Shown here: piece after piece, positions 14,770 to 52,316 of the stretch
How the letters are laid out: every line of letters starts with the position of its first letter
Position numbering within the stretch: the stretch's first letter is position 1
Source: Heterodontus francisci
Lineage: Eukaryota
Direction of reading: 5' to 3'
DNA length: 64,000 nucleotides
NCBI RefSeq assembly: GCF_036365525.1
Contig: NC_090376.1
Coordinates: 131,358,765 to 131,422,764 of the forward strand
Notes under the pieces: model-generated
What the model was told of the DNA's origin: nothing
What the model saw: only the letters and a program-made list of their open reading frames with translations
Database searches by the model: none
Translations under genes and position numbers: made by a program

Positions 14770-15020
14770 TGGTCATTTATGCCCTCCACCCTGTTAGTGA
14801 CATTTTCCATTTTTCCCATTCCCCTACCTTTTCCCTGCCTCAGTACTTGCTTATGAACTATTAACTCTCTTACTTCTTCCGGTTCTGATGAAAGGTTATC
14901 AACCTGAAACATTAGCTCTCTTTCTCTCTCCAAAGATGCTGCCTAACCTTTTGATTGTTTCCAGCAATTTCTATTTTTGTTTCAGATTACCAGCATCTGC
15001 ACTATTTTGCTTTTATTTTA
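14770..15020 (+). mobile_element. Penelope 3' fragment with hammerhead-like motif
   Basis: GGTT CTGATGA A AGGTT ATC AACCT GAAAC ATT at 14881-14913, followed by the conserved terminal repeat. Confidence 0.7.
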
Positions 15021-16495
15021 GTATATTTGAGTCCTTGACTTGGATCAGTTATACACTGTTTGCATACCAAACTGTTGAAACTATCAGGCTTCATCCATTC
15101 TGCTAAGGCTCCACTGCTGTGTCATAAAATACACTGTAGTTAGCCTTCCTCATTTCCAACTGTGTCTAAGCAATCCATTTTTCAAATTTTGCAATAGGAC
15201 ATAAATGATGGATGTTTCAAGATACATAGTCTATACTTAGCAGTGGATCATTTAGTTTTACATCTGCAAATGCCAAGCGGTCTACCAGAAAATTGAGGTC
15301 TTAAACCAACTCCACTTCTCTGCTTCCCAAATTGACAAATCATTTGCTATTTAACTAGTAAAGAAAAAAGATCATTATATAAAATTAAGGATAGAAAGAA
15401 TGGGAACTAAATTACATCAGTACTCCCTGGTCCAAGTTTCTATACACCCTGATGCCACTTCATCTGAAGACTACACTTGGTCATGACAAATAGCAGTTGA
15501 TGCTGGTTCAATTGTTAATTTTAACTCTGAGATTGAAAGATTTCTGTTGACCAGGGGTATTAAGGGATATGGGGCAAGGGCAGATATAGGCAGTTAGGTC
15601 ACAGATCAGCCTTGATTTCACTGATTGGCAGAGCAGGCTTGAGGGGCTAAATGGCCTGTTCCTGTTCCTATGTCCTATGTTCATGTATTTATTCTCCCTA
15701 TGCAATGCCATGGCAAATTAGTAACATATTAAAAATGTTATGTTTGCATATGTTTCCATTCAATTTTTTCCATTTTAAATTTCTATTTTAAATTTATAAT
15801 GGAAATTGTCCGACTGGCAGGTAAGTGTAAATACAAATATTGAATTTACATAGACAGTTTCCATTGTACGTGTTGAAATTCATCTTTTCTTTAACTCACT
15901 TTTTTTGCATCTTTCTCTTTTTCTTATTTTCCTCTTTTTGGATGGAGGCTAGCAGCATAAGGAGCCACCAGTTGCATTGGGGATGCAATTGTGGGAAATA
16001 TGTGGCCCTCAGCACCTCACATCCCATCCCTTCCCAATCATTCATGCTTCCCCCAACCCAACTTGATCCCATGGCATTCCCTACCTATTCATCTTCCTAT
16101 GATCTTTTCTCCTTCCTACTACCCCATTGCTCCATCACTACCTCTTTTCTTTTGAACTACCCAATCCACTCCTGCATCACCCCTTTCCCCCAAAGGCAAA
16201 TGATGAGGCCAGAGGCCCCTTCAACCTTAGCCTGTTTCCCTCATCCTCTTCACCCCTGCCTCACTTCCTTTTTTTCCTACAATTTGCTTTCAAAATTCAA
16301 CTTGTCTTTTAAAAAATCAAAGTAGAGTAAAAAGGGACCTGTATGTCTCTCTCTCTCTCTTCTACTCTATCATTGGGTTAGAAATTAGAACCTTTAGCTC
16401 ACAAGGGTAAGTGATTAGCATTGTTCTTTTCTACTTGTCAACAAACACCAGTGAGATTAATTTTTTTTTAATTGAGCTAATATTAAATGAAAGAT

Positions 16496-17283
16496 TGGCT
16501 GGGATTTTATCCGGATGATGGAGGTCTCGACTTCTGGCAAAAGCACCACTGAGAACCCCACGCTGTTCCTTTTATGGGAGGCCCGCCGAATCAAGTGCCA
16601 ATTGGGCACTTGACTGGACAGCGGCAGGCTTTCCATGGGCTCAAGGACCCTGGTGCCGGAAGGCCCACCCTCTGAGAGCTGCCAGCCAATCAGAGGCTGG
16701 CAGCTCTTGAACTGAGCAGCGTCACCGTGGAGGTGGTGGCTGCTGCTCGTGCAGCACTCACCTGAGCCCTAGGAGCAGCACTGGACCTCAGTCACAGGTA
16801 ATTCAGGGCTGGCTGGGTCTCACGTGTGAGGATCATGGGGAAGGTGTTGTAGAGGTATCAGTAGCGAGGGCAGGGCGGTGGCTCTCAGCGGGTCTCCCCG
16901 CCCCCCCCCCTTCCCAATGCCAGGTCCATTGTTGAGGCACTAAGTGCCTTTTTATCGAGGGAACCCCCTCACCCACCCCCAACCCACAGCCAGCAAGCAA
17001 CCCGCATGTTTTTTCTTGCCGTGCTTCCTATGCAGTGACAGGCCTGTCCACCACCCCCCCCCACCCCACTCAACCCCACTGGGCTAATTGCAGTGGTGGT
17101 GGGATGAGGCCCTTAATTGGGCATTAATTGCCCACTTAGGGTCTCAATTGGTGGAGGGCAGGAAGGCTGTTCCCAGGCCATCCTACCCAGGACTTAATTT
17201 CGGCAGAGGCGGGATTGTGACAGGATCCCCCCAGCCACCATCCTACCCAATTATATCCTCTCCTGCCTCCAAAATTCCCCCCC
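16496..17283. mobile_element. MITE of the same family as 5809-6534
   Basis: Degenerate TIRs GGCTGGGATTTT / AAAATTCCCCCCC with ATT on both flanks; shares internal motifs (CAGCCAATCAG, CCCTTAATTGG). Confidence 0.7.
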
Positions 17284-17641
17284 ATTGTTTCTCACCTTCC
17301 TTTCTCTGACCCCAGTCTTTCTTTCTCCTCTCTGTCATTGTCCCTCTCTTCTTCTACCACACTTCCAATGATCCCCGTCACTCTCTCTCAGTTTCTCTGA
17401 CTCCCCCTGTCTCTCTTGCTCTTTCTATCAGTTTAATGCTCTTTCTGAAAACTAGGACAATTCTGTAACAAGAACACTGTCATTTTATTTAAGTTTTTGT
17501 CACTAGACAGACAATAACGCTTTTGGAAGTTGACTTCATTTTTCAAATTTATTTTAAAGAAAGCTACTGACAAGAAAGGCAAATACTAAAAGAAAAAAAC
17601 AAATATTCCATCATCATAACTTATTGCATTATTACAGCCAC

Positions 17642-18487
17642 TGTTACGAAGGTGCTTCTATGTTTAGCGTTAAATTTTATGAGGGCTCATATTTAAATGG
17701 TGGAAATGGATTCAGTTTTGAAAGGCTGACGATTTCACAGATGCTGGCCTTCGTTTTGTTGTTGACAGTTTACTGAAAGGACACTGAAATGTTATGTTTG
17801 AAAAGAACCTTTATCGAATGTCACACGATAAATAAACAACAGAAACCTTGGTGTCCTGGGGCAGATGTTTACAGAAAAGTGACATGTTAAGATTTATAGT
17901 GGTCAGGATGTTCCAACTGGCTATTTGGGGTTTTGCTTCTGAGATGTTGTTTTGGTTCAGTTGGAGTGTTGACAGTGTTTGAAAAGCAGTTGAAGATCAA
18001 TCTGCCAAGGAATAAACCCTCAGTTCATCTTTCCTGCACCTCTCGAAGAGACCCTGAGAGGTCCAGTGTATCAGCTCCTCTTTCGTCCTGTCACTGAAAA
18101 CACCTGCATATTCAGTGTGATAATGGAAATCCCTGGTGCCACATTTCTCCTGGAAAGCCTACCAGATTAATTCTTGACATCTCCAGAACGAACTGCTTCA
18201 GAAAATATCCCAGTGACCCATCACTATAAACCCACACACCAGACCAAAAGGGGTGACATCCTTTCATATATTCTCTTTTTCTTCAAGAATTAGCAAGTGT
18301 TTGACCATTGTATTTTTTTTTTGTCTTTTTTTTGTGGCAAGCTCTGCAGAGAGAATTTCTTTATTTGTTTTTGTGTGTGTGAGTTTGTATGTGGGGTATT
18401 TTAAAAGGGAACGTTCATATTTCAATCTGTGTGTTCATGCTTTGCTTTGTTACAGGATAAGTCTTGTTTTCTAATAAACTGATAATG
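17642..18487. mobile_element. Solo-LTR-like element, related to 6556-7534 in the opposite orientation, truncated
   Basis: Begins TGTTACGAAGGTGCTTC, similar to the reverse complement of the 7534 end; similarity is also visible near 18460-18487. Confidence 0.6.
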
Positions 18488-18548
18488 AATGAGTCCTGAT
18501 TAGCTTGGATAAGAAAAGTGTCTCAAGCAGATTGAGAAAGTGAAAGGT

Positions 18549-18680
18549 TCTGATGAAAGGTCATTGATCTGAAACGTTAACTCAATTTTTCTCTCCACAG
18601 ATGCTGCCAGAGCTGCCAAGTATTTCCAACATTTTCTGTTTTTATTTCAAATTTCCAGCAGCCATAGTATTTTGCTTTTG
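18549..18680 (+). mobile_element. Short Penelope-derived element with minimal hammerhead motif
   Basis: CTGATGA A AGGTC ATT GATCT GAAAC GTT AACT at 18550-18582; flanked by a ~16-bp TSD (TGAGAAAGTGAAAGGT 18533-18548 / TGGGAAAGTGAATGGT 18681-18696). Confidence 0.8.
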
Positions 18681-20215
18681 TGGGAAAGTGAATGGTCTGT
18701 TTCTGTTGTCTATGTGCATAACTTAACTTTTCAAAAGTGAACATTTACAAGTCATCATCATTGAATACTCTATTAGATGATTTTCTTATTTAGCTTTACT
18801 TTTTGTAAAAGCAGACTTCATTTGGTTGATTCAGTCAGCAGTTGTTGACAGATGTTTGGGTGTAGTTACCGTTTTGCTAAAGGAAGTCTACAGGTCAGAA
18901 CACAAACTGGTAATTAGTTACTCTACCAGTTACAACATGAAAAAGATGTCGATAATATCAATGACATTTTTTCACTAATTCTGCTTTAAGTTCTCACAAA
19001 AGCTCGAAATCAGACTGATTGCATGCTTTCTTCAAGATGAAAATTTCAAGAGGTGAGGAACGACAGAATGACTAGTAAGAGGATTATGATAAAATAAACC
19101 ATGAGTTCTCCTGAGTCATGAGTTATACAGAAGTCACGAACACCACGGTGCATGAGAATTCTACTGGCCGGTCTTGCACTACGGTTTATTTTTCTGATTC
19201 ACAAGTGAATTGCTACGTGCTATTTTTTTACAAAGTACAAAAATAATCCAAGTGTAATCACTTTGAAAGCTATGGATCTGACAGTGACAAATGCTGTCTG
19301 TAAACTACTACTGAATATTCCATATGTGTTATATGAATAAAGAATGTACCTTTTGTTTGTCTTCAAAGACTCATCAAACACCTCAAAAAAAAGTTTATTG
19401 CAACATTACTTTCAAAAATGTGCTTGAAAATTAACAATTACAATGAACATATTTAAGTTCATTTAAACAAACCGACTGTATTCAGTTTTGAGTGTAATAC
19501 ACCAACATTTCAAACATAAACGGTTTTGCCTATTCAAACAATCCATCTCATTCAATATAAACTAATGTTCAGTTCAAATTCTGCTTGAAGCACTCAGCAT
19601 TACAGCCTTAAGCCAGATGCGAACACAAGAGCTGAATTCTGGAAAAGAGTTGAGGGTAGCTGCCCTTATCATCAAAGCAGCATTGAACTAAGTGTGGCAC
19701 TCAGAAGGCCTGGCAAAACAGAGGTCAGTGGGGGTCAAGGCAAAACCCTTCAATGGTTGAAGTCATATCTGACACAGAGGAAAAAGGTTGTGATTGTCAG
19801 AGGTCAGTCATCATAACCCCAGAACCTTGATGCAGGAGTTTCTTGGAGAAAACTGTTTGACTCAACCATCTTCAGTAGCTTTCCCTTCAACACAAGGCTA
19901 GGAGTGGGACTGTTCACTGACAATCCAATGTTCAACCCATTCACAACCTCTCTGTTTGGACTACAGCAAGATGTGGACAATATCTGGGTTTGATCTAATA
20001 AGTAGCAGGTAGCAGTTGTGCTATATAAGTCCTAGGTAATAACCATCTCGACAATAATTTGCTTGATTGGCATCCTGCCACTGTACTCAATAGTTACCCC
20101 TGCCACCACTGGTGGGCTGTAGCTGCAGTCTATCTACAGCATGCACTGTAGTATCTCATTCAGCATGCTTAAATAGCACCCACCACTCACCCCCACCATC
20201 CTACTGCTAACATAG

Positions 20216-21111
20216 TGTCATGCTAGGCCCCCACCTGCCAAGGATGAGGCACATTAATTTTGTCATGAACATTGATTTTAAACTGTTACTGGAGTGAAGA
20301 AAGGACTTGTTAAATAGATCAGCCATGGCTGGAAAAGACATTTGCATATTAACAGACGGTGATTGGAAGGACAAAGGACCATTCCCGGACACATTCAACC
20401 CACAATGGACCTTGATCACCAGGTATTGTGTGTAAGAGGAGCATTACAGAGACTGCTAAGGTGATACAATCCAAGAAGTGGTCAGACCAGTTAGTCACAT
20501 GACTAACCTACTTGACAGCCTGGGTTTTTCTGAATTATACGAACAGTTTGAACAGAGTGTGTCTGTTTGCTCCTGGACTGAGAAGATCTCTCCTGTCTGC
20601 TCCCATCTCTTTCTCACAAGCCTCTGAACCCACTGAAGACACATGAACCCCAAGAGAGAAAGGTCTCCTACAGTTAAACAAGGTTTAAGATGAATACTGG
20701 GCCCCAACAAAAAGCAAGACCTACCTACAATCAAGGACTCTACATGAGCTCGAAGAACCATAACAAATACTCTTCAGATATTGCCTCAAACGTTTCAACT
20801 TTATTTTTCGTCTGCTCTTGTCTGTCTCTATCTGCATGTGAGTATCACACATGCATGCTAGCGTGGGTGTGTTGTGTATCCATAGGTATTAACCGAATTA
20901 CAGTTTAAATTTAAGTTTAATGAATTTCAACTTTTCTTCTTTAAACCTAAGAAAGCCTATTTGTGCTGGTTTCTTTGCCTTATAATTGGAAAGCAGCGAA
21001 CAAGGATTCACCAAGGGGGAGCTAAAAACATGGTGTGTTTAAAATTAAACCCTGTTATAGTAAGACCAGGTGAAGGCTGAAAGGGAACCTCTTTCTCACC
21101 TAGTCATAACA
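20216..21111. mobile_element. Solo-LTR-like element inserted in an old LINE fragment (~19690-21250)
   Basis: TGTCATG...CATAACA termini, ~900 bp, non-coding; LINE-like sequence on both sides. Confidence 0.7.
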
Positions 21112-24389: not shown

Positions 24390-24981
24390 AAGAGAAAAAA
24401 AAGTCAGTAAGGAAAACAGAAAAATTGCTCTACATTTAAAATTTGACATTGTTTAAATCTCCACTTACAATTCAATACCTGAAGGAATGAGACTCCATAA
24501 ATTTAATTGTTCATGTTCTGGGCTAAAGAGGTTGATCAGTAGTCATGAACAGTTATCACAATGTTAAAATTGTACTAATGCTATTAATTACTAAACTTTA
24601 CTTTTTGTGGTGATTTTAATGGACAATTGGCATGCAAGTGCAGCAACTTCAACAAAATCCCAAGGAGGTTAATTGTGAGATGCTGCTTTTGTGAGGTTAA
24701 CAGCAGAATGGCACAAATCGCCCAGCAACTTATGGCGATTCACACCTTATGGGGTGTCCCTTCCACATCACATTTTGCTGGCTGATTTGCACATTTAAAA
24801 AAAGTCTTTCATGGAATGTGAGTGTCGCTGGCATGACCAGCATTTATTGCCCATCTCTAATTATCCTTAAGCAGGTGGTGGTGAGCCTTCTTAAACCACT
24901 GTAGTCCATACTGTGTAGGTACACCCACAATGCTGTTGAAGAGGGAGTTCCAGGATTTTGACCCAGTGAAGGAACGGCGAT

Positions 24982-25340
24982 GAGAACAGAAACTGCCAGA
25001 AATATTCAGCAGTTCTGGCAGCATCTGTGTAGAGAGAAACAGAGTTAATGTTTTAGGTCTGTGACCTTTCATCAGAATTGGCAAAAGTTAGAAATGTAAC
25101 AGTCTTTGAGCAAGTGAAAGGGAGGAGGAAGGAAGAAGAACAAGAAGGAAAGTCTGTGATAGGATGAAGGGGGAGAGATTAAATGGCAGAGATGTCACGG
25201 ATCAGAATGCAAATGGAGTGCTAAACAGTTGTAGAGAAAGGCAAAACATGAATCCAGAGAGAGTGCCAATGGCAGAACAATGAACAGCTATGAAAGCAAA
25301 AACGTGAAAAACAAGTTTAAGACTAGCACAGTTTAAAAAA

Positions 25341-25377
<37 letters not shown>

Positions 25378-28231
25378 TAAAAAATAATAAACAAAAAATA
25401 ATGGGGCTCATTGTCTGAAATTATTGAACTCAATATTGAGTCCAGAAGGCTGTACAGTACCTAATTGGAAGGTGAAGTGCTGTTACTCGAGCTTGTGTTG
25501 ATGTTCACTACAACACTGCAGTAGGCCGAGGACAGAAATGTGGGCATGAGAACAAGGTGGTGAATTAAAATGGCAAGCAGCCAGAAGCTCGGAATCATGC
25601 TTGCGGACTGAGCGGAGGTGTTCTGTAAAGTGGTCACCCAATCTGCGTTTGGTCTCCCCAATGTAGAGGAGATCCCACTGTGAGCAGCAAATACAGTATA
25701 CTGAATAGAAAAAAATACTTCATCTGAAAGGAGTGTTTGGGGTTCTGGATGGTGAAGAGATAGGAGGTAAAAGGGTAGGTATTACACCTCCTGCGATTTC
25801 ATGGGAAGGTGCCGTTGGAAAGGGATGAGGTGTCGGGGGTGATGTTGGAGTGGACCAGAGTGTCGCGGAGGGAATGGTCACTTTGGAATGCTGGAAGATG
25901 CGTTTGGTAGTGGCATCACGCTGGAAATAGTGGAAATGGCAGAGGATGATCCTTTGGGTGTTTAAGCTGGTGGGGTGGAAAGTGAGGACAAGGCGAACCG
26001 TGTTGTAGTTCTGGGAGGGAGGGGAAGGGGTGAAGGCAGAAGTGTGAGAAATGGGTCAGACACAATCAAGGGCCCTGTCAACCACTGTGCGGGGGAATCC
26101 TTGGTTGAGGAAAGAGAAGAAATGTCAGAGGTGCTATTGTGGAAGGTTGCATCATCAGAACAGATACATTGGAGACAGAGAAACTGGGAAAATGGAATGG
26201 AATCCTTACAGGAGGCAGGGTGTGAGGACGTGTAGTTGAGGTAGCTATGGGAGTTAGTGAGCTTATAATAAATACTAGTGGACGGCCTATCCCCAGAGCT
26301 GGAGACAGAGAAATCGAGGAAGGGAAGGGAAGTGTCGGAGATGGACCATGTGAAGGTGAGAAAAGGGTGGAAATTGGAAGCAAAGTTGATGCAGTTTTCC
26401 AGTTTGGGGCAAGAACAGAAAGCGGCACCGATACAGTCATCAATATACCAGAAAGGAGTTGAGGAAGGTGACCTGAATAGGACTGGAACAAGGAATGTTC
26501 GACATGCCCCACAAAAAAACAGGCATAACTAGGACCCATGCAGGTACACGTAGGAACACCTTTTATTTGGAGGAAGTGAGTGGAGTTGAAGGAGAAGTTG
26601 TTTAATGTGAGAACAAGTTCAGTCAAGTGGAGGAGGGTGGTATTGGATAGGAACTGGTTGGGCCTCTGTTCAAGGAAGAAGCAGAAAGCCCTCAGACCAT
26701 CTTGATGTGGGATGGAGGTGTAGAGATTTTGGACGTCCATAGTGAAGAGGAGGTGGTTAGGGCCAAGAAACTGGAAACTGTCGAAATGATGTAGGGTGTC
26801 AGAAGAGTCACGGATGTAGGTGGGAAAAGACTGGACAAGGGGAGAAAAATAGAATCAACATAGGAAGAAATCGGTTCAGTGGGGCAGGAACAGGCTGAAA
26901 CGATGGGTTTACCAGGACAGTCCTGTTTGCAGATTTTGGGAAGAAGATAGAAATGGGCGGTTCAAGGTTGCGGGACTATGAGCTTGGAAGCTGTAGAGGG
27001 AAGATCTCCAGAGGAGATGATTTCAGTGACAGTCCTGGAGACAGTGGCTTGATGGTCGGTGGTGGGGTCTTTGTCCAGGGGGAGGTAGAAAGAAGTGTCA
27101 GAGTTGGCGCTCAGCCTCTGCAAGGTAGAGGTCAGTACATCAGACAACAGCATCACCCTTGTCAGCAGGTTTGATCACAATATCAGGGTTAGACCTGACA
27201 GAACGGCATGCAGCAAGTTCAGATGGGGACAGGTTAGAGTAAGTGAGGTGGGCAAAGAAATTAAGACAGCTGACAGTTTTCAATGAAAAGATCAAGAGCA
27301 GATTAGAGGCCAGAGGGAAGGTCCCACCCGGTAAAAGGAGAGCACTGGAGGTGGGTGAAAGGGTCCGCTGGTCGAGTGGAGGACTCCTGCGCAAAAAGTG
27401 AGCCCAGAGGTGAAGGCGACAGAAGAAAAGATCAACCTCGTGTCATGCGCAAAATTCACTGAGGTGGGGGACTAAGGGGATAAAATTGAATCACTTGCTA
27501 AGTACAGATCATTCAGCATCAGCGAGGGGAAAGTCAGAAGGTATTGTGAATACACAGCAAGGGGTGAGATCAGGGCAAGGGATGGGCTCAGAGAGAAGGG
27601 AAGGGGAAGAAAGATCTGAGGGGCGTTGGTACCTATAAGTTGCTGGAGCTTGCATTCCTTAACACCTGAAAGGAAGAGATAAAGTTTTTTGTTAATGCGT
27701 TGGATAAGGCGAAGAATGAAATTAAACTGCGGAGCAGAACAGCTTTGAGATAAGGTGAGGCAGTGCCTCTCGAGAGAGAGCTCGAGTGTGTACATGTTGC
27801 AGTGCATGGCACGGAATGTGGATCTCAGGATACGGTGAGAACAGCAGTCCGAGGAACGTTGTATGTCTCGGCGATACCTGTCAACCTGGGTAGATTTGAA
27901 ACATGAAGGATGAAACCCACATGGAATACGTCGGAGCCAGAGACAGTCGTTGAGGAAGGAGATGTGGCTGTGAAAACGAGCTTTAGCAGAAACCTTATCG
28001 AACATCAGGAGGGAAATGGAAAGCAATGAAGATGAACGAGGTAAAAGAAATAAAAGGAAATCCGGTCTGAGAGAAGAGCAGAACTTCTTTAAAAGGTAGG
28101 TATTCCTGGAAGAGAAGTAGCAGTGAATTAAACACTAAAATGACAGCAAAGTACTGTGGATGATGGAATTCTGAAATGAGAAGAGGAAATGCTGGAAATA
28201 TTCAATAGGTCTGGCAGCATCTGTGTAGAGA
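24982..28231 (-). mobile_element. Near full-length degenerate Penelope-like retroelement (RT + GIY-YIG endonuclease)
   Basis: Frameshifted ORF pieces DIVIKPADKGDAVV, MDVQNLYTSIPHQDG and LNNFSFNSTHFLQIKGV..MGPSYA, and VYCICC...LYIGETKRRLGDHF at ~25630-25700. Direct terminal repeats at both ends; ~14-bp TSD GAAGGAACGGCGAT (24968-24981) / GAAGGAACAGCGGT (28232-28245). Confidence 0.9.
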
Positions 28232-28745
28232 GAAGGAACAGCGGTCTTATCTTCCAGGCAGGTTGGTGTGTGACTTGGAGAAGAAGTCGCAGGTGGTAGT
28301 GTTCCCATGTGTCTACTGATCTTGTCCCTCTAGGCAGTACATGTCATGGGTTTGGGAGGTGCTGTTAAAGGTTGATTTGTCCTCGATAATGTTGAGCTTC
28401 TTGTGTGTTGTTAGAGCTGCACTCATCCAGGCAAGTGAACAGTATTCCATCACACTCCTGACTTGTGCCTTGTGATGGTGGACAGGCTTTGGGGAGTCAG
28501 GAGATGTATTATTCAATGCAGAAGACCCAACCTCTGACCTGCTCCTGTAGCCACAGTATTTATGTGGCTGGTCCAGTTATATTGCTGGTTAATGGTAACC
28601 CCCAGGATGTTGATAGTGGGGGAATTCAGTGATGGTAATGTTGTTGAATGTCACAGGGAGGTAGTTAGACATGCTCTTGTTTGAGATGTTAAGTACCTGG
28701 CACTTGTGTGGCATAAATGTTACTTTCCACTCATCAGTGCAAGCC
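28232..28745 (-). mobile_element. LINE 3' fragment (host of the Penelope insertion; its tail continues at ~24800-24981)
   Basis: KAQVRSVMEYCSLAWMSAA...KKLNIIEDK RT-thumb-like peptide; the uninterrupted tail is seen at ~41990-42300. Confidence 0.75.
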
Positions 28746-29461
28746 ATTAAGAAGAACCTGCGTCATTCATATCCCGTTATTTTCCCAGCAAATTCTTGTA
28801 AGATGGTTTATGGAATTTTAAGGGTCTAGAAAGAATAGAAATAGACAAAAAAATGCACAGCAGGACCCAAATGTAGCAGATAATTAATTCAATGTATTTC
28901 AACAGTGTTTGAAAAATCACATGATATTACATGCAATTCTGTCAATGGGAATTAGAATTGGTCTGTCACTTGCTAAAAATATTCAAGATGAATCAGAATA
29001 AATATTCAACATCTGTCACTATGACAAGAGTTTCTCTAAAGGAGAGGAAATATTAAAGATTAACTGAAATTTGGAGTGGTATCATTTTGCCCAATCATTT
29101 AAGCTGGCTATATACTAAGTATAGCTAATCCTTCACAAAATAATTAAATAGTAATATAGAAGAATTTTAAAATCTATGTCGTGTTCATCATTTCAATGTT
29201 TATTTAACAAAAAATTTAAAAAAAGGAGAAATTACCAGACAGCAGAATATCTAAGCAACTAATGGATCTTAGCCCAGAACTTAACGAGTTGACTTTTCAT
29301 AAATTTGTTCTTAGGCTATGCAAAATATTGGCAAGGCTGCAGTGAACTCCCATCCCTAAAGGCCCTGAGCAACTTTTTTTATTCAAATGAGTAGCTTGCG
29401 AGGTCACCTCAGAGGGCATGAAGAGTTGACCATGATTTTGTATCTGATATTGATTTTTAAA

Positions 29462-29753
29462 ATGCCTGAGCAGCTCTCAAGAACCATTATTCCACAACGT
29501 CGACAAGGTGATGAAGCAGTTTCACCACGACAACAACAGCTCCTTCAAGGCCACGAGCATTATGAACTCATTTGTGAACGATACGTTCAAATGGATCATC
29601 GGTGAGGCTTCCTGCCTGGCCCATGACAACAAGCGCCACAACATCAGCTTCTGGGAAATCCAGACCATTGCCTGCCTGCTACTGCCTGGGGAGCTGGTCA
29701 AGCATGCAGTGTCGGGTGGAGCAAAGGCAGTGACCAAGTATACCAGCTCCAAG
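29462..29753 (+). pseudogene. Orphan histone H2B pseudogene
   Basis: KVMKQFHHD...[31 protein letters not shown]...EIQT...[35 protein letters not shown] (MPE) at 29462 is out of frame, the N-tail is largely deleted, the stop is lost and no histone stem-loop is visible. Confidence 0.9.
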
Positions 29754-30639
29754 GAAATCTGCGCAATGCACTGAAAAATACCTAGAAACTACTAGATTTA
29801 TTGAATTGAGTTTCACACCTTGCTCTCGTTGAAGTGTTGAACTTGTGGCCTCTGGGTTGCTCTCCAGTACTGAACCATCCATGTTGGTTCGTGGTCAGGA
29901 GGGGAATGAATAATTATTGCAAACATACTGTAAATGTATTGTCAGTGATGCTTCATTAATAAATATGGATGTACAGTTGTTGAGAGTAATTGGATTGCCC
30001 CTCACTGCATTGCTGTTTGTAACAGCTTCAGCCAGTAAGCTCATTGATTAGAATTTCTCCTTACTAGGCAACACATACAGATACACTCTCTATAACATGT
30101 TTCGTCATACAACACACTTCCAAATACTGTTCCACAGCAGTTTTACATGACACTGTGAGCTCTCATCATATTCCCTGAAAATACACCATATTAGTATTGT
30201 TAAATAATAGGAATGCATTGGCAATTTAAAAAAAAAATTGTTAACAGACAAAAGCACCATACAAGGTATGAATAACTAGTGCACAATGCTGTCTGTTCTG
30301 GGCTGATGTGTCTATACTTCATGTTGAAAAGTCATCAATATAAGCACTTTCCTTTCCTATCATCATTTATTACTTGCCTTTTCTTTTCCTCCTCCTCTAT
30401 TCTTCTTGGGCTGAGACAAGCTGCTCCGAATCCTCAGACAATCCTGAAGAAATGTGTTAGTGTGCCCAGACTGACTTGTCTTCTGATTATCCCTCTCTCC
30501 ACATGGCAAAGTGCTTAACCTCCTCTCAGTCTCTCTGTATGGGAACACATTGTGCTCCTCATGGGAAATCAAGGGCACAAACCTGTGTCCTTGCACTCAG
30601 TTATCCATGTATTAGAAGGTATTCTCCACAGAGCAAAGG

Positions 30640-35904: not shown

Positions 35905-36510
35905 AGAAAGGCTTGCATTTATATAGTGCCTGTCACAACTTCCAGATGGCCCAAAGCGCTTAACAGCCAAGGAAGTACTTTTTGAACTGTACTCACTGTT
36001 GTAATGTAGGAAACGCAGCAGCCAATTTGTGCACAGCAAGATCCCACAAACACCAATGTGATAATGACCAAATAATCTGCTTTTGTTCTGATGAAAGGTC
36101 ACTGACCTGAAATGATAACTCCGCTTCTCTCCCCTCAGATGTTGCCAGACCTGTTGAGTATTTCCAGCACTTTGTTTTTATTTCAGATTTCCAGCATCTG
36201 TAGTATTTTGCTTTTAATCTACTTTTGTGATGTTGATTGAGAGATAAGTATTGGCCAGAACACCGAGGATAACTTCAATGCTCTTCTTTAAAATAGTGCC
36301 ACGGGTCTTTGACATCCACCTGAGGAAACAGACGGTGCCTCAGTTTAACATCCTCATCCAAAAGACAGAACCTCAAACCGTGCAGCACTTCCTCAGTACT
36401 GCACTGGAGTGTGGTCCTAGACTTTTGTGCTTAAGTGTCTGGAGTCAAACTTGAAATCAAAACCTCTGACTCAAAGGTGAGAGTGCTACCAACTGAGTCA
36501 CAACTGACAC
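35905..36510 (-). mobile_element. Deu-domain SINE interrupted by a Penelope-derived short element
   Basis: SINE sequence is continuous across the 36087-36214 insert. Confidence 0.8.
36087..36214 (+). mobile_element. Short Penelope-derived element with hammerhead-like motif
   Basis: TCTGATGA A AGGTC ACT GACCT GAAA; 14-bp TSD TAATCTGCTTTTGT (36073-36086) / TAATCTACTTTTGT (36215-36228). Confidence 0.8.
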
Positions 36511-38975: not shown

Positions 38976-41900
38976 AGTCAATGGTATGTAAAAGGTAAAA
39001 TTACATTAAATTGCATGAGCAGGAAACTGAAAAGGCCACAGGTTCAATATAGCAAAAAGCATATTTAGGAAAATCTTCCACACAAAAGATCAATGGACAC
39101 CGTGCCCAAATTGGGTGTCACATTTCCGACAACACTTGACTACAATTCAAAAGTACTTCACTGGCTGTAAAGCATTTTGGGACATCCTGGTTGTGAAAGG
39201 CGCTAAATAAATGCAAGCTTTTTCTTTAACAGCACAAGTCAATTAAATGGATAATAAAATACAGTATATTCCAAACTCAGTGCACCTTCATCCAGAATCA
39301 TAGGTGGTGAACGTGGCAGTGGTTGTTCTAAATCTTTCATAATTTCATAATCAAATTACTAAAATTAAATACAAATGTTATATTTTTAAAGCAATCAGAG
39401 ATTCTGAAATGCCTAGGCAAGTGGTAATAGATATGGTCATCCTCAACAGCAGCTTGCTTTCACCTTTCATAGTAGCAGTGACTCATGTGCAACAAATGCG
39501 CTATTCTTCATTTCACTTCGCTTACTAAAATTCTGGGGGGGTGGTGGTGGTGGGCACTTGTTGGATTGTGCATGTTCTTTTCATTGGTTCTATATAGGTT
39601 ACTGAATCACAATATAGAACAGATTAGTGACTGCAGTGCTCGAACCATTGGTTCTTTTAGCACTATGCTGCTAGTGATTATCATCCTTTTGGTTGCCTCC
39701 AGCCTAGTCAATACTGGGCAGCCAAAGCTTACATGCAAACTCGAGGGGAGAACTTCCCAAGGATGGCGCTAACACAATCCTTCACCTAATCAGATATTAT
39801 TTTTCAGAATTCATCATTTGTTTTATGACTTGGATTAAAAAGTTTTGTCTGCATTTTCTACTTTCCTACTCTTTCTAGTCAGGCATAGCATAAATGTAGG
39901 ACTTGCCCAGATTTAAACATTATTTTGGTTGCACTGGCACCTGTACCAATTTTAGATGATGGTGCGTTAGCAATCAGAAGTGATGCTTAGCTCGTGAGAA
40001 TAAGTTCAAATTGTTGAGCATCTTGGTCATTCACTGTGGTTAGCATAACTCAATGCACTGCTCAGATTTAATCTGTAGGCTACTACATATTCACACAGCA
40101 CTGCCACAATCCAACCATTCAAAATAAAGTACACTCTGTTGGCCTCATGAGGAGATAAAACCGAGTTTAAAATCTCTAAAGACATTAAGACAAATCAGGC
40201 AAATATGCCCCGATGTTTAACGGTTGGCTGGCTACAGTTGAAATGTGAGCTTCATTTTCACAACAGTTTGTAACACTATACAAATACCTTGGTGGTTCAC
40301 TCTGCATCTAGTTAAATGAGAAAAGGAAACCATTTATTTCCTCCACTAATATTAGGTCACTGTACTTGGTAATGTTCATTTTTGGATGCAAGACACCATC
40401 ATATTCATCACAGCAACGAAACCTCTACATTTACAGATTCAAATTGGTAAAAATAAGTACGGGTTACAATATTGAGGGACAATATCGAACGTACTACTTT
40501 TGAACTGGTTTACTTGCTTCATTTATATTAAGTAAACTAAATTGATTCAGGTATTTTCCCTTCACTTCTATAAAAGCAGCCGCGTTTTTCATTGGAGATG
40601 CAGAATAACAAGTAATTAAACTTGTACTCTGGCCAGTTCAAGTGGTATCCAATTATTGTAGCCAATAAACCCACTCACTTTTTTTTTTACTTTTAAAAAA
40701 AATTCTTGTTACTTTTTCAATTGGGAATTAATGAGAAAGGGAAAAGCTTTTTTTCTCTCATTACTGTGAATTAAAATGTATTACAGGCAGCAAGTTGGTG
40801 GATATTCATACTGTACACTAGTGTATGAGTGTGGATTGGCTCTGCAACTATAATGGCAACCTTTAAACCACATCAAGTGTGTGGGGACAGAAAGAAACGG
40901 AGTCAAATCACCCCAAGCTGTTCTTTAAATGGTTCCCAGAGCAGAACTGACACGGAACTGAAACATGACTTTGCCATTGTGATCGCCATCCTGTGTTCTG
41001 AGGCAGGAACTGCGAGTTAAAATACAAATAATTTGAAAGGATCTTTTTAAAAAAAATACTCATTTAAACCTAGCTTAATAGCAGCTCCAGGCAGGAATTT
41101 TTAAGGTTATACACATTTGAAAAAAAATGTTAACCTTCAGTGGGACATTGTGAATTTTTGTAATGGTTTAATCTGTCACAAGTGAGAGAAATAAAAGCAA
41201 TAAATTTGATCAATTTTGTTTCAAAATAAAATGCACTGGAACATTGGTACCTTTCAACTTACACACACCAATTAATGTTCTATCATTATGTTTCAAAATT
41301 AGCAACATGAACTATACCACTTGGATTAAGCTAGCGCTGTACTATTAACTCAAATTGTTGCATTTTGAAATGCATTTCAAGTACTTAAATGTATATTATA
41401 TATATGAAAAAAAATGCAGACCCAAGGTGGGAAGAAATGATGACATTTGATGGTCTGCATGTATGCACACACAAGTATCTACAATCATTGTCTCTCAGAT
41501 TGCTCATCTGCTTTATAAGTGGGAAAGTAGATTGATTTTACATCTCTGCCAACAAGATATATTTGTTTATAAGGCAAAATAGTGCAGATGCTGGAAATGT
41601 GAAAAGTCAACAGAAAATGCTGGAACCACTCAGGTCAACTGTAAAGAAACAGAAAAAAAACTCTCCACAGATGCTGCCCAACCTGGAGTATTTCTCAAGC
41701 TATATAATTTTTTTTGGAACAGAATGGGTCTGAGGCAACTTCAGATTCACTTTCCCTCAAACATCCAATTTTGTTATCTACTGCACCCAGATTTCAGAAT
41801 TTATCATTGCTAGGCCTGGACTATAACTACAAGGCGACCAAACCTGATTCACTGACCACTAACAACTGGTGAAACACAATTTAGGCTAGGAGATTCAAGT

Positions 41901-46828: not shown

Positions 46829-47267
46829 CTGTTAAGATACAGAGATATAATTATTTGGTAGGACAGTTCTATACAGGCTCAGGTAAAGTTTCTAGGCCAA
46901 CAAGCTCAGTTTGTCTGGCTCCAATTGAGACGTTGCTGGGAGTCAATTTGTTTGAGCATTTGGTCATTCAGGGAGAGATATCCGCTACTTTTAATATTGA
47001 CAAACTTGTACATAGAATTTACAGCACAAACAGCTCAATTGGCCCAATGTTATTGTCCACACAAGTCTCCTCCCACCCTACTTCAGCTAACCATATAATC
47101 TATTCCTTTCTCCCTCACCTTATCTAGCATCCCTTTAAACTTTCCTCCAACAACTTTCATGCTGCCTCACTTCTTCAACTCTACTAGACCTTGGAAAAAC
47201 CTTGACTTTGGGTCAAATTTCCCACAGTTCACTCTCTTCATTCGCTCAGTTTACTCCTTTATGTTTC

Positions 47268-47680
47268 AGTGGCATGGTCGTTATATTACTAGACTAGTAA
47301 TCCAGAGGCCGAGATGAATAATGTGCTAGACACAAGTTGAAACCCCAACGCAGAAGTTTGTGAGCAAAATTCAGTTAATTAAATAAATATGGAATAAAAA
47401 GCTGGTGTCAATAATGGTGACCATGAAACTATTGGATTATAGTAAAATTTACCCGATTCATTTAATGTCCTTTAGGGAAGGAAATCTGCCATTCTTACCC
47501 GGTCTGACCTACATGTTTTTCCAGGCCCACATCAATGTGGTTGACTCTTAACTGCCCTGAGAAATGACCTAAGCAAGTTACTAAGGCAGCTCACCACCAC
47601 CTTCTCAAGTGCAATTAGGGACAGGCAACACATGCTGGCCAATGCAGCGATGCCCTGATTCTGTGAATGAATAAATTAAA
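47268..47680 (+). mobile_element. tRNA-derived SINE
   Basis: tRNA-like head, core GTCCTTTAGGGAAGGAAATCTGCC, LINE-type tail; partial copy at 51205-51460. Confidence 0.7.
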
Positions 47681-47844
47681 ATGGCGGAACATTAAGGAAC
47701 AAAATGTGTAAGACTTCTGCCTCCTTCAAAACTTCAACTTCTAGCATGACTGAACTCCTGTTTTCTGCTAACCAGAAGAGTAAAGACATGCAGGGGACTC
47801 AATGAGTGCACCTTTTATCTTCTACCCTATTTTATTAAAGTTTA

Positions 47845-48590
47845 CAACAACAACAACAACTTGTATTTATACAGGGTCTTTAACACAATTAAACATCCCA
47901 GGGTACTCCACAGGGGCATTATAAAGTAAATTTGACATCGAACCACTTAAGGCGATATTAGGTCAAATGGCCAATAGCTTGGTCAAAGAGGAAGGTTTTA
48001 AGGAGTGTCTCAAAGGCGGAAAGAGAGGTAGAGAGTGTTAGGGAAGGAATTCCAAAACTTAGGGCCTCGGAATTTGAAGGCACAGCCGCCAATGGTGAAG
48101 CAATTAAATTTGGGGATGCTCAAAAGTCCAGAATTAGAGGGGCGCAGATCTCTTGGAGGGGTGTGGGCTGGAAGGGATCACAGAGATAGGGAGGGGAGAA
48201 GCCATGGAGGGATCTGAAAACAAGGGTGAGAATTTTAAAATCAAGTCGGTGCTTAACTGGGAGGCAATGGAGGTTAGTGAGCACAGGGGTGATGGGTGAA
48301 TAGGGCTTTGTGCGAGTAAGGACACGGGTATCAGTGTTTTAGATGACTTCAAGTTTACAGAGGGTAGAATGTGAGACACCAGCCAGGAGTGCATGGCAAT
48401 AGTCCAGTCTAGGAGGTAGCAAAGGCATGGATGAGAGTTTCAGCAGCTGAGACAGGGGTGATGTTAGAGGTGGAAATAGGTGGCCTTAGTGATGGCACAG
48501 TTATGTGGTCGGAAACTCATCTTGGGGTCAACTATGATATCCAGGTTACAAACAGATTTACAAGAGACTATTTCTTTGCCAGCAAAACGG
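47845..48590 (-). mobile_element. L2 LINE 3' fragment
   Basis: VCNLDIIVDPKMSFRPH...ITKATYFHL; (CAA)n tail at ~47845. Confidence 0.8.
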
Positions 48591-48710
48591 AATCTACTTT
48601 TGCAACATTTTACCAGCATCAGGCTTGACCTCCTTTTCAAAAGGAAAAACAAAAGATCTTTGTGCAATTTGCCCCTTTTTAAAAAGATGAATGAAAGTTG
48701 GGCTACTGAC

Positions 48711-48863
48711 CTGAAACTGCGGGACGGTCATTTCGAATGATCTGCTGATTATTTCTCCTGAGGGGTCAGCTACTTTCAGCATCATGGTTACATAGGGGTG
48801 GTTTAGAGATCTGCAGCTGTCAGAACTGACTGCCATTCCCAGCTTCCACTGCAAGTCCACAAG
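48711..48863 (-). CDS. COMMD6: COMMD6 exon 6 (COMM domain)
   Basis: LVDLQWKLGMAVSSDSCRSLNHPYVTMMLKVADPSGEIISRSFEMTVPQFQ; aag| acceptor, |gtcagt donor, 153 nt, phase 0/0. Confidence 0.96.
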
Positions 48864-49408
48864 CTTGGAGGAAACAAAAAAATAAGCATTACATTTTTAC
48901 AAATAGTCTTTTGCAAGCACCATGGAGTCTTAAATGTATTGAACATCTTGATAAAATGCAATTTAGACTTGGTCTCCTTGTAATAAATGTGACTAATTCA
49001 TGGACGAAATTTTGCTTAGTTGAACCGCCTGCTCTGAGTCTCCTGCTAATACAGCGATACAGTATTTAAAACTAGCCAGACTCAGGAGTAACTATAACAG
49101 ACAATGTTGGAAATACGCAGATTAGTCAGCATCTGTGGAGAGAGATGGCCTTTCATCAGAAATTGAAGAATTTAGAGATTTAATAGCAATTTTGATGTCC
49201 CCCAAAATAACAATGACATGCCTTGCCTTCTACTTCTGGGTCGAACATAGTGGCATCTGCTGCAAACTTCATGAAATGCAAAAACAAAGTATGGTGCAAT
49301 ACACATTTGTAGAAACATCTGTGGCTCAGGCCAAATATGACAAGACAACAGATGCAGATTTATACACATTCAAGCTTTAAAAAGCCTGCACGTACTGGGC
49401 CCTCTCAC

Positions 49409-49577
49409 CTGTCCGACTGTCAACATGTGCTTGGCATCTTCTGGTGTCACAATTAGTTTGCCCTGTTCATTCCACACGTGACGAATAACTTGAAGTGCTT
49501 GCTTGGACCACTTACTGCTGCTATCTGCTAGCTTCACAATGAGGTCTTCAGCTGTCATATTACCCTGTGCAGCTGAC
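49409..49577 (-). CDS. COMMD6: COMMD6 exon 5
   Basis: Pyrimidine tract plus cag|, SAAQGNMTAEDLIVKL...VWNEQGK...MLTVGQ, |gtgaga; 169 nt, phase 2/0 consistent with neighbouring exons. Confidence 0.9.
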
Positions 49578-49794
49578 CTGCCAAGAAAAAGAAGGAAAAT
49601 TGACAGGTGTTGCCTGTGTTCCCTCTGAGCTCATTAGGCATTGTAAAAATTTAAAGACTGGGGTTGGAAAAGGCTATGGCCACTGACTTAAGGATGTTCA
49701 TACTGTACTCGATAATTTACAAAATACGTTAAAAGGTGAACAGCACTTTTCCCTAGTTTTATATGATGGGCATTAATAAAACACAAAAGGAACT

Positions 49795-50030
49795 TCCAGA
49801 GAAACATCTTTACCCAGACAGGGGTTAGAATGTGGAGCTTGCTACCACAGGCAGTAGTTGAGCTGAATAGCATTGATGCATTCAGGGGAAGCTGGATAAG
49901 CACATGAGAAAGGAATAGAGTATATGCTGATGGGGTTAGATGAAGAGGGGGCAAGAGGAGACTTGTGTCAATTATAAACACAGGCATGGTCCTGATGGGC
50001 CGACTGGACTCTTTCTGTGCTGTAAATACT
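49795..50030 (+). mobile_element. CR1 3' end
   Basis: Degenerate FTQ..VRMW.LLP-type sequence and CR1 tail. Confidence 0.65.
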
Positions 50031-52098
50031 TTATGATACTTTTTAAGAAAGAGGTATCAAAGCAGTCTATAAAGTCACATATTACCATGATAAAACACAA
50101 TCACTTTTCATAGATTATTCCTACATAAAGAATCACCTCCTCACAGCTGGTCCCTACCTCTTGCTGTTGCCCATCATTGGTGGGAATTCCCACCCACAGT
50201 ATTCCACAGAAGTAAGCAGGACCTGGAACTGGCATCAGAGCTGGTGGGGGGGACGGGAAAGGAGGGAGAACAATATGCAGTTTCACTAAAGCAGGAGGCA
50301 CCTAGAATTGCAGTAAGGCAGGTGAAAGGAGCCAGAGGTGATGTTACATGCAAGCAGAGTGGACTGAAACAGGTTGTGGGCTACAGACTGAGCTACCATT
50401 GCAGCTATTTCCTACCCAGCTAACTGGACAGATGCTGTAGCTCAAGTCAACGGTTAAAATGGAGACCCGCTTGTCTACATAGCTCAGCTGTGCACTTCAA
50501 ACTTCCCAATAAGCTAGCAATTTTATCAAGTTCTTTACACCAAATCTGTTCAAAGGAACGAGAAACCTGGGGCTCGATCTTGCTGGAGCAGGGCAGCATG
50601 CTCTATTAGTTAGACTTGTTTGTGCGCGCTTTGAAAGTTTTTGGCCACAAAGTTGCTGAAAGTGCGAGGCGAAAATGGCGCAGCGAGGGCAACAGGGCAC
50701 CTTGGCATACAAAGGGACAAATCAACAGCTTTAAAATGAGGGAATGCAGTGGGAGTGGTGCTGCTCCATTCCAACTGTACCCTGCTCCTTTCCTGCCGAA
50801 TGGGGAAGAGTTAAAAGTCCCCTCAATGTTTTATACATTAATTATACTATATGTCAAGTTCGACCTATAAATGCATGCTCATTCAACAGATACTCTGCAA
50901 CAACTGTGTCCAGGCTGTCACACAACAGTAACTCATCACTTCTGTGGCATTGCACTTAAAAGAAGTCAACATGTCTGATAAAATGCCTTTAAAATAAACA
51001 CAGGCATGGTCCTGTTGGGCTGACTGGCCTCTTTCTGGGCCCCTTTATATGGCCCCAATTAATTGCATTACTTTATTTGTCTCCACCCAACGTTTACAAA
51101 CCACCAAATACACATTATTGTTTTCATAATATTAAATTTCATGTTTGAAATTTTAAAGCAAATAATTGATCATTTTTACTTTCACATCTCCAAAACCAAA
51201 AATTAAAAACCCATCTGGTTCAGTAATGTCTTTTAAAGAAGGAAATCTGCCATCCTTATCCGGTCTGGCCTATATGTGCAACTCCAGACCCACAGCAATG
51301 TGGTTGACTATTAACTGCCCTCTGAAATGGCCTAGCAAGCTCCTCAGTTGCATTCAAGAAAGTGGCTCACTACACCTTCTCAAGGACGATTAGGGATGGG
51401 CAACAAATGCTGGCCTTGCCCGTGTCGCCCACATCCCATGAGTGAATATTTAAAATAAAAATCAGTACTGTGTGACAATATTAGAAAATTGCATGGATGT
51501 TCAAAACAGCACTCACTTCTGATCCACATACATTACTGCCTGGGCAATACTAAATGTTGAGCAGGACATTTTGACTTGATTGGATTCAGGTGGCAAAAGC
51601 AAAGTAAAAATCAATTGTAAAGGCATACCACTTCTAAAAAATAAATCGACACATTTTCAAGGGCAATTGGGGATGGGCAATAAATGCTGGCCTTGCCAGC
51701 GATGCCCACACCCCATGAATGAATAAAATAAAAGCTGCAGTATTGCATGTTCAAAAAGGCAAAACTGGGAGGTCTTGAAAAGAAACACTGCAGCTTAGAT
51801 TGGTCAGAAAAAATGTTTTGTTTTCTGCTACTTCGAGGGAGGCAAATACTTTAGTTTGCTTGATCGGAATTTAAAAGTGGTGGCAGAACAGAATCAAATA
51901 GACAAACCTCGCTTTGATCTGGAAACTGTGGTGTGTTACAGCTGATCTTGAGTCAGAGAGGCAGCTTTCAATTACACTCAACGCAAAATGAGCTAGAATT
52001 TTATTTTTCAAATATTGAAACAGCTGTTTCAGTTGTTAACCTTTTTTTCCCCCAAGAATTACAATAACAACTTCTCATTCAACCCAGTGGAATAAGAT

Positions 52099-52316
52099 AA
52101 AAGCAAAATACTGCGGATGCTGGAAATCTGAAATAAAAACAAGAAATGCTGGAATCACTCAGCAGGTCTGGCAGCATCTGTGGAAAGAGAAGCAGAGTTA
52201 ACGTTTCGGGTCAGTGACCCTTCTTCGGAACTGGTCCGAAGAAGGGTCACTGACCCGAAACGTTAACTCTGCTTCTTTTTCCACAGATGCTGCCAGACCT
52301 GCTGAGTGATTCCAGC
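52099..52316. mobile_element. Young fold-back Penelope-derived insertion (82-bp inverted repeat)
   Basis: Arms 52148-52229 and 52235-52316 differ at one position; 5-nt spacer; exact 10-bp TSD GGAATAAGAT (52089-52098 / 52317-52326). Confidence 0.9.

What the first reader, a model, noticed from the sequence alone, without database searches (positions are those of the whole stretch)
14881..52316. Dispersed family of Penelope-derived mini-elements carrying a covarying minimal hammerhead ribozyme
Seen: at 14885, 18550, 25075(-), 36088, 52236(+) and 52228(-) the motif C(U/C)GA(U/A)GA-A-[stem II]-GAAAC-GUU recurs. Stem II shows compensatory changes between copies (AGGUC/GACCU, GGGUC/GACCC, AGGUU/AACCU). 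Helix III is reduced to the palindrome ACGU, and a short stem I forms between (G/A)GUU and AACU. Some copies have decayed (AAAAC at 25075, GAAAU at 36088). Established: Penelope-like elements carry minimal type I hammerheads that can cleave as dimers through a palindromic helix III. Inference: this genome hosts a high-copy ribozyme-bearing PLE family, with about nine terminal-repeat copies or remnants in 64 kb.
Basis: partly seen in the sequence, partly recalled or inferred. Interest (0 to 1): 0.7.

Follow-up and report, generated by a model that had tools for sequence, protein, structure and literature searches.

The report
Penelope retrotransposon stubs headed by hammerhead
These repeats are the short end-pieces of a known kind of jumping gene (a Penelope-like element) in a likely shark genome, and about half of them begin at the front edge of its tiny hammerhead-ribozyme motif rather than at the predicted cut site, likely because copying runs off the start of an uncut RNA.

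Summary
The motif is real at all six stated places. The copies are terminal repeats (pLTRs) of an endonuclease-bearing Penelope-like element (PLE). A decayed full-length copy lies at 24980-28235, and the genome holds intact 916-aa RT/GIY-YIG frames. Minimal hammerheads in PLE pLTRs are published (PMC4209133), so this is a new member of a known kind. Two exact motif variants occur 4,772 and 29,667 times, and extrapolation gives about 0.5 million pLTR arms.

Covariation is weaker than claimed. There is one true compensatory step (A-U, G·U, G-C; A·C in 0 of 106). The AGGUU/AACCU case fits neutral decay. Only 52228(-) keeps the complete motif.

One feature was not found in my searches of print. 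The 5' ends pile up at the first bases of stem I (32 of 60 random, 28 of 38 anchored short copies), not at the predicted cut site. Copies that carry the long ORF do not stop there (0 of 14). The likely cause is RT run-off at the 5' end of uncut RNA. Cleavage and the start site are untested. This scan reported the same pile-up in other shark-like genomes (eight notes).

The parts
14844..15022 (+). pLTR arm of an older subfamily with about 40 nt or more of 3' UTR, decayed hammerhead (C3 at 14885, helix III ACAU) and the 35-nt tail
   Evidence: no TSD found
18547..18679 (+). solo pLTR from -3 to +130 (C3 = +1 = 18550); core and ACGU intact, one G·U in stem II; TSD-like repeat at 18533-18548 and 18681-18696
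24980..28235 (-). decayed near-full-length PLE: 5' pLTR piece starting at +37, broken ORF, 3' UTR, hammerhead, pLTR without tail; TSD-like repeat at 24965-24979 and 28229-28243
28136..28235 (-). 5' pLTR piece of that PLE (lacks the hammerhead), running into the ORF start
26078..26854 (-). RT remnant, 78-84% identical in protein to the 149 other scored genomic copies
25555..25700 (-). GIY-YIG endonuclease remnant (frame-shifted; approximate bounds)
   Evidence: read against the intact ORF
25044..25078 (-). decayed hammerhead in the 3' pLTR (C3 at 25075; G12 changed to A, predicted dead)
36085..36216 (+). solo pLTR from -3 to +131; helix III and cut site decayed; TSD-like repeat at 36072-36086 and 36214-36228
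52099..52316 (.). one young insertion made of two head-to-head pLTR arms (minus arm -5 to about +130 with tail, plus arm -1 to +81); 82-nt 99% inverted repeat; exact 10-bp TSD at 52089-52098 and 52317-52326
52196..52232 (-). the only complete minimal hammerhead motif in the window (C3 at 52228; U4C variant; predicted cut after GUU); predicted to be masked by the long hairpin of the pair
41569..41697 (.). old head-to-head pLTR remnants without hammerhead
49096..49162 (-). pLTR remnant with the 5' half of the hammerhead (C3 at about 49159) and an internal deletion

Best explanation
The copies are separate insertions of the terminal repeat of a Neptune-type Penelope-like retrotransposon with a known minimal hammerhead motif, and about half of the short ones start at the first bases of stem I, likely because the element's reverse transcriptase starts 100-135 bases downstream and runs off the 5' end of an RNA that the predicted ribozyme has not cut. 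Shown: the PLE identity, two 3' ends (about +97 and +133), the 5' pile-up at -7..+5, its absence at +29/30, TSDs, and head-to-head pairs with one tailed arm. Inferred: the two 3' ends are RT start sites, as measured for the anole Poseidon element. Inferred: the RNA begins at about -4, in an initiator-like YYAGTT. Inferred: long, more-than-unit copies come from templates with no end there (read-through of tandem arrays, a circle, or a template jump). The motif would cut weakly and only as a dimer or with protein help, as published for relatives; it would not be needed to make these insertions. Identity about 0.97, run-off mechanism about 0.55.
For: Full-length element in the window. Intact ORFs with a 3,290-bp unit and a hammerhead in each pLTR. 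RVT_1 and GIY-YIG hits. 5' ends in -7..+5: 32 of 60 random copies, 14 of 19 young and 14 of 19 older tail-anchored copies; 0 of 19 and 0 of 19 at +28..+32. Genome-wide, an exact 35-mer at +1..+35 has 32,611 hits, while a more permissive 35-mer at -15..+20 has 18,766. Tail-ended copies stop there in 28 of 52 at risk, long-ORF copies in 0 of 14 (Fisher p 1.4e-4). TSDs of 9-19 bp occur in 17 of 69 non-inverted short copies, against 0 of 305 controls, so the upstream flank is target DNA in those cases. One long and one short arm in 14 of 16 head-to-head pairs. The anole PLE starts RT internally at two sites and uses uncut RNA in vitro (PMC11167929).
Against: No start site was measured: only assembled contigs were available and their RNA status is mostly a guess. 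The same letters (CTAAY..YAG) read as a branch point and 3' splice site, and the D. virilis intron ends at this point of the ribozyme. In D. virilis the start site lies about 120 nt upstream of that point (46-bp exon plus 75-bp intron). The -7..+5 window was chosen after seeing the data. Anchored sets come from the start of one contig and include both arms of some pairs. 4 of the 14 long-ORF loci are array-internal (0 of 10 without them). 6 of 60 random copies do end at +28..+32 (3.3 expected). 29 of 41 non-inverted hot-spot copies show no TSD. The element was not placed on a tree with named clades.
Confidence: 0.6

Rival explanations
1. RT stalls or lets go at the 5' edge of the ribozyme, because of RNA structure, a bound protein or the splice-acceptor-like site, although the RNA continues upstream.
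For: Branch-point/YAG-like letters are kept in all subfamilies. A small TTC-N4-GAA hairpin at -2..+8 can explain fold-back junctions. One copy (L206) and one contig joint link ORF sequence directly to -3/-4.
Against: A structure would stop RT at its 3' side, not after it has been copied (established RT behaviour, recalled). Long-ORF copies pass the site in 14 of 14. There is no pile-up at the putative branch point (-18..-8: 1 of 30 at risk). No constant upstream exon is seen and no GT..AG joint to the site is among the joints listed (some were not shown).
Confidence: 0.2
2. The short copies are a self-propagating non-autonomous family (SINE- or retrozyme-like): solo pLTRs are transcribed from an internal promoter and recopied in trans.
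For: Fixed ends, own TSDs and very high copy number. pLTR sequence alone can mobilise DNA in trans (PMC3846280 passages). It would also explain why long-ORF copies lack the -4 end.
Against: Short and long copies share the same subfamily states and the same two 3' ends. No tandem monomers were seen in 1.2 Mb, and no boundary lies at the cut site as in retrozymes. No shared downstream flank among short copies was noticed (by eye).
Confidence: 0.15
3. The ribozyme cuts the RNA after GUU and the cut product is the template for the short insertions.
For: 6 of 60 random copies end at +28..+32. ORF-running copies show 4 of 30 ends at +39..+45, and the window's own element starts at +37.
Against: 0 of 38 anchored short copies end at +28..+32. 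Three of the random +28 ends share an unrelated upstream sequence and look like another repeat inserted at TTAA (inference). Most short copies retain the whole motif.
Confidence: 0.05
4. Not exclusive of the others: the motif no longer cleaves in this lineage and is kept as promoter or protein-binding sequence.
For: The youngest and most abundant form has U4C, which considerably lowers activity in vitro (PMC3088659 passage) and is absent from the rows of the published alignment that I saw. The downstream pLTR (+33..+59) is as conserved as the motif. Only one compensatory change was found.
Against: Every other subfamily change falls on N7, loop 2 or a pair that stays paired (A·C in 0 of 106). 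U4C still supports viroid infectivity. The related anole motif cleaves with protein help.
Confidence: 0.25

Closest known systems
Minimal hammerheads (min-HHR) in pLTRs of metazoan PLEs (Cervera and de la Peña 2014, PMC4209133)
   Same: CUGANGA plus one extra base, stem II, GAAA, palindromic 15.2-16.2 with no loop 3, and a short stem I. CGU-U cut sites occur in many published rows. Motifs are mostly single, some in opposite-strand pairs, and two lie about 3 kb apart around an ORF. Reported for Xena, Poseidon and Neptune PLEs of fishes.
   Different: Stem II is 5 bp (7-8 in S. mansoni). The youngest form has U4C and the oldest A10.1-U11.1. Exact copies number 29,667 against about 9,000 motifs in Xenopus. 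No cartilaginous fish is named in the text read or in supplement file 2.
EN+ PLEs, Neptune/Nematis type (as described in Craig et al. 2021, PMC8557442)
   Same: Single ORF with DKG motif, RT, CX4CxxC linker and C-terminal GIY-YIG with CxxC..H..H. Partial tandems, inverted 5'-truncated arm, optional 30-40 bp tail.
   Different: Not placed on a tree. The 5' truncation is strongly non-random here, which the passages read do not describe.
Poseidon element of the green anole, PAc (Frangieh et al. 2024, PMC11167929)
   Same: Two RT start points that define the tail, about 100-135 nt 3' of the hammerhead. Both target strands are extended. Uncut RNA serves as template.
   Different: The ORF here starts about 170 nt after C3, not inside stem II. 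The 3' ends are U-rich, not AC-rich. The linker points to a different clade.
Animal non-LTR retrozymes (bioRxiv 10.64898/2026.07.22.740005)
   Same: Non-coding, hammerhead-bearing, pLTR-derived.
   Different: Retrozymes are tandem repeats with at least two consecutive hammerhead units. These copies are dispersed solo or inverted arms with TSDs.

Membership tests
EN+ Penelope-like element | single ORF with RT and C-terminal GIY-YIG | tested here: met
   916-aa ORF; RVT_1 E 1e-6 and GIY-YIG E 2e-4, both just under Pfam's gathering scores; 1,090 relatives at E<=1e-20 among 7,983 scored
EN+ Penelope-like element | pLTRs from partial or full tandems, inverted 5' arm, optional 30-40 bp tail | tested here: met
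   period 3,290-3,306 bp; 3' ends bimodal at about +97 and +133; one tailed arm in 14 of 16 pairs
EN+ Penelope-like element | RT groups with PLE/telomerase RTs in a tree | not tested
   no named reference sequences were held; the PDB search gave no useful hit
Neptune clade | CX2-5CxxC linker between RT and EN, and CCHH in EN | tested here: met
   read from the ORF; the feature is shared with Nematis
Neptune clade | phylogenetic placement apart from Nematis | not tested
   no labelled references
PLE minimal type I hammerhead | core CUGANGA..GAAA with extra base before stem II | tested here: met
   the youngest subfamily deviates at U4C
PLE minimal type I hammerhead | palindromic 15.1-16.1 segment, no loop 3, NUH cut site, short stem I | tested here: met
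   ACGU then U17, stem I AGUU/AACU; matches published rows
PLE minimal type I hammerhead | covariation in stems | tested here: inconclusive
   one compensatory step through G·U; the second claimed pair is not supported; no R-scape-type test was run
PLE minimal type I hammerhead | self-cleavage as a dimer or with protein | not testable with these tools
   needs a bench assay; insertion ends carry no mark at the cut site
Non-LTR retrozyme | tandem short hammerhead monomers with boundaries set by cleavage | tested here: not met
   no tandem short monomers in the window or in 1.2 Mb of random stretches; ends at -7..+5, not +30. Such arrays elsewhere in the genome were not searched for.

The most novel reading that the evidence does not exclude
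Penelope elements have a 'strong-stop' step like retroviruses. RT starts inside the 5' pLTR, copies to the RNA's first base at the head of the uncut hammerhead, and must then jump or use an endless (circular or tandem) template to make a full copy. The tens to hundreds of thousands of stubs are failed transfers that map the RNA start to a few bases. The hammerhead's job would be to trim the 3' end or circularise the RNA, not to define the insertion.
Probability: 0.3. Interest if true: 0.65.

Novelty: new member of a known kind. Interest (0 to 1): 0.3.

Why it matters
The ribozyme-bearing PLE is known biology. What is useful is the fossil record. The function of PLE hammerheads is stated to be unclear (PMC8557442), and this genome holds a young family with tens of thousands of near-identical insertions. 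Their ends say that the RNA copied was uncut and probably began at the ribozyme's first base. That yields direct tests (5' RACE, run-off RT, cyclic-phosphate sequencing) of how PLEs replicate. It also suggests that the most recent expansion used a core variant (U4C) reported to lower cleavage.

Tried and rejected
Rfam scan: no hammerhead family among 13 matches at E<=5, so Rfam models do not see this minimal form.

Pfam on the window's broken PLE frames: 0 of 6 hit. PDB sequence search with the intact ORF: one chance hit at E 0.19.

Compensation at the inner stem II pair was rejected. The 83 doubles compare with 44 expected from independence, the mismatch form is 13 times commoner, and about half of the doubles carry the ATC loop whose CpG decays to give the 3' change (43 of 83 counted by eye).

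A lariat or branch-point stop was rejected because there is no pile-up at -18..-8. Capture of a constant upstream exon was not seen.

Dimer folding was uninformative: the predicted dimers swap stem II strands instead of showing the ACGU duplex. Adding 60 nt of natural upstream sequence lowered predicted stem II probability below the shuffled control in 9 of 11 usable copies (one row matched an inverted arm and one had no match). The copies are related, so this is a weak hint only.

RNA evidence: only contigs were served, so no start, end, strand or cleavage could be read. The between-locus distance for partial tandems was not obtained because the script stopped at that step. Lünse et al. 2017 could not be read.
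Full report
Numbering. C3 of the hammerhead core is +1, stem I begins at -4/-3, and the predicted cut lies between +29 and +30.

1. Observation. The motif is at all stated places (25075-). A core-plus-stem-II descriptor finds 5 sites in the window, against 0 in 39 and 1 in 1 of 40 Markov controls. Homology searches show 12 arms in 8 insertions, including three head-to-head pairs and a decayed near-full-length element at 24980-28235. Five of the 8 insertions have a TSD or TSD-like repeat, exact for the 52099-52316 pair. Only 52228(-) keeps every core base and both stems. 18550 is nearly intact and the others have decayed. Rfam reports no hammerhead.

2. What it is. The window lies in a 6.0-Gb genome. 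The RT remnant found 30,288 candidates, of which 150 were scored, 4 of them in 924-codon open frames. In 16 fetched loci the element is a 3,290-bp unit with a 916-aa ORF: DKG motif, YIDD, CX4CxxC linker and GIY-YIG. It has a hammerhead in each pLTR and occurs as partial tandems and arrays. Pfam gives RVT_1 and GIY-YIG just under the gathering scores. The linker is the Neptune/Nematis mark. Among the 120 listed relatives the highest identities are 70% and 66% to Chiloscyllium punctatum proteins, and the rest are 46-58%. The host is therefore likely a cartilaginous fish (inference). Exact counts are 4,772 for one older motif and 29,667 for the youngest, with reversed controls at 0. In 120 evenly chosen 10-kb stretches there were 98 arms, or 82 per Mb, which extrapolates to about 0.5 million.

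3. Covariation. In 106 copies that span the motif, pair 10.1-11.1 is G-C in 42, A-U in 39, G·U in 23, other in 2 and A·C in 0. In 21 of the 23 G·U copies U4 is also present, so G·U is a subfamily state and not only CpG decay of the young form. This is one compensatory path in a master lineage. Other subfamily differences are N7, loop 2 and U4C. For the inner pair the genome holds C-G 13,938, U·G 586, C·A 1,056 and U-A 83, with 44 expected by independence. The 1.9-fold excess is of the size that mixed ages and the CpG in the ATC loop would give (inference), and the mismatch is 13 times commoner than the compensated pair. The 14885 variant is decay. Sequence 3' of the motif is as conserved as the motif itself, so conservation alone does not show selection on catalysis.

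4. Ends. The 3' ends are bimodal at about +97 and +133, which is the known tail. In 14 of 16 head-to-head pairs one arm is long and one short (p 0.002). For 5' ends, 8 of the 98 random arms were dropped as weak or at a stretch edge. Of the 60 remaining arms that end in -45..+46, 32 end in -7..+5 (13% expected, p 1.6e-13, window chosen after looking) and 6 end at +28..+32 (3.3 expected). In two sets of 30 loci anchored on sequence 3' of the ribozyme, 14 of 19 and 14 of 19 short copies end in -7..+5 and none at +28..+32. The mode is -3. Genome-wide, an exact 35-mer at +1..+35 with three CpGs has 32,611 hits. A 35-mer at -15..+20 with four degenerate places and one CpG has 18,766, a ratio of 0.58; upstream variants not covered could add to the drop. 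Of 102 short copies, 33 abut an inverted arm, and 17 of the other 69 have a 9-19-bp TSD (0 of 305 controls), 12 of them among the 41 hot-spot copies. Among 30 loci where the pLTR runs into the ORF, the 18 whose ORF runs to the locus end stop at the hot spot in 0 of 14 at risk (0 of 10 without array-internal loci). The 12 with early 3' ends stop there in 2 of 6, and tail-ended copies in 28 of 52. In three partial tandems the two units are identical over 991 nt and share 1-2 alleles found in no other sampled locus. Other pairs differ at up to 9 sites. Contigs from two coded organisms also break off most often before -4/-3 (13 and 10 contigs in X1, 14 in X5), though X5 has 17 at +22 and X1 has 9 at +38. 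These may be DNA and show no RNA start.

5. Mechanism. Shown: the ends, TSDs and arrangement. From published work: the anole PLE nicks both strands, starts RT at two internal sites near the pLTR-ORF junction, and uses uncut RNA. Its hammerhead cuts only with protein and is dispensable in vitro (PMC11167929). Inferred: RT starts at +97 or +133 and copies back to the RNA's first base near -4, where YYAGTT resembles an initiator (consensus recalled). The cDNA is then joined to the target, often by 1-3 bases of microhomology, or to a second cDNA from the other strand, which gives head-to-head pairs. Long copies would need a template without that end. I put run-off at about 0.55, a stall or splice-related stop at 0.2, copy-of-copy spread at 0.15 and cut RNA as template at 0.05. 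The same upstream letters fit a branch point and 3' splice site, and in D. virilis the intron ends at helix I while transcription starts further upstream. This is the main unresolved alternative. In head-to-head pairs the motif is predicted to be buried in a long hairpin (stem probabilities 0.0), so those copies would be inert.

6. Comparison with what is known. PMC4209133 describes minimal hammerheads in PLE pLTRs, widespread as single motifs or opposite-strand pairs, with low dimer-dependent activity. The motif here fits its consensus and CGU-U sites are common in its alignment, while U4C is not among the rows I saw. U4C lowers activity in vitro but is tolerated in a viroid. Inverted arms, tails, TSDs and solo pLTRs are described. 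Retrozymes are tandem and are reported for one cartilaginous fish, and these copies do not meet that definition.

Papers seen. PMC4209133: parts 1-3 of 4 of the text, a search of supplement file 2 and its part 2 of 3; file 1 was not searchable. PMC11167929: parts 1-2 of 4; supplements not opened (its Fig. S2 on genomic ends may bear on the pile-up). bioRxiv 10.64898/2026.07.22.740005: abstract, Results part 1 of 2 and passages; supplements closed. PMC8557442, PMC3846280, PMC2377424, PMC3088659, PMC6765202 and PMC6155905: passages only. Lünse et al. 2017: title in a reference list and a review's sentence only. Seven searches showed, in their listings and in the papers I opened, no report of a 5'-end pile-up at PLE hammerheads or of this shark family. 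Repbase, Dfam and subscription journals were not searchable.

7. Earlier scan notes. After I had reached this reading, one search returned eight notes from other shark-like genomes, most with the same pile-up and the same run-off idea. They are unchecked AI notes and are not counted as support.

8. Verdict. A new member of a known kind, interest 0.3. The ribozyme-PLE link is published. The end geometry is a real, testable refinement, seen repeatedly in this scan.

Noticed in passing
L131:3680, L134:8149, L278:about 8055 (random stretches): Three old copies break at +28 beside a shared unrelated sequence, as if another repeat had inserted at the TTAA inside the pLTR's GTTAAC. This mimics a cut-site end (inference).
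   Followed up: partly
window 28235; L293, L295, L302, L307: ORF-running copies show 4 of 30 5' ends at +39..+45, and the window's element starts at +37, shortly after the predicted cut site. The sample is small and the sequence is pyrimidine-rich.
   Followed up: partly
L206; contig joint L090:4436 to 5127 in run X1: ORF sequence is joined directly to -3/-4 of the pLTR, as expected if RT jumped after reaching that point.
   Followed up: no
L087, L090, L096, L300/L301, L321/L322: Head-to-tail arrays of full 3.29-kb units, with neighbours differing at 0-4 sites per 1 kb in the three arrays compared.
   Followed up: partly
pLTR +49..+123: A long predicted hairpin sits between the ribozyme and the tail. 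The +97 end falls near its tip and the +133 end just after it, so it is a candidate RT-binding structure (prediction).
   Followed up: no
window 2745-3185 (-) and 48594-48896 (-): Host exons with PID (E 0.005) and COMM (E 4e-16) domains. They look like TBC1D4 and COMMD6 (names recalled), so most copies are likely intergenic and the 49.1 and 52.1 kb ones likely intronic.
   Followed up: partly
window 29454-29774 (+): Decayed histone-fold frame (Pfam Histone E 9e-7), probably an H2B pseudogene (name recalled).
   Followed up: no
window 12079-12549 (+) and 8646-8963 (-): DDE_Tnp_4 transposase remnant and LINE-type RT remnant.
   Followed up: no
window 62183-62302: Long imperfect hairpin with sub-threshold miRNA-family hits, probably a small inverted-repeat element.
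   Followed up: no
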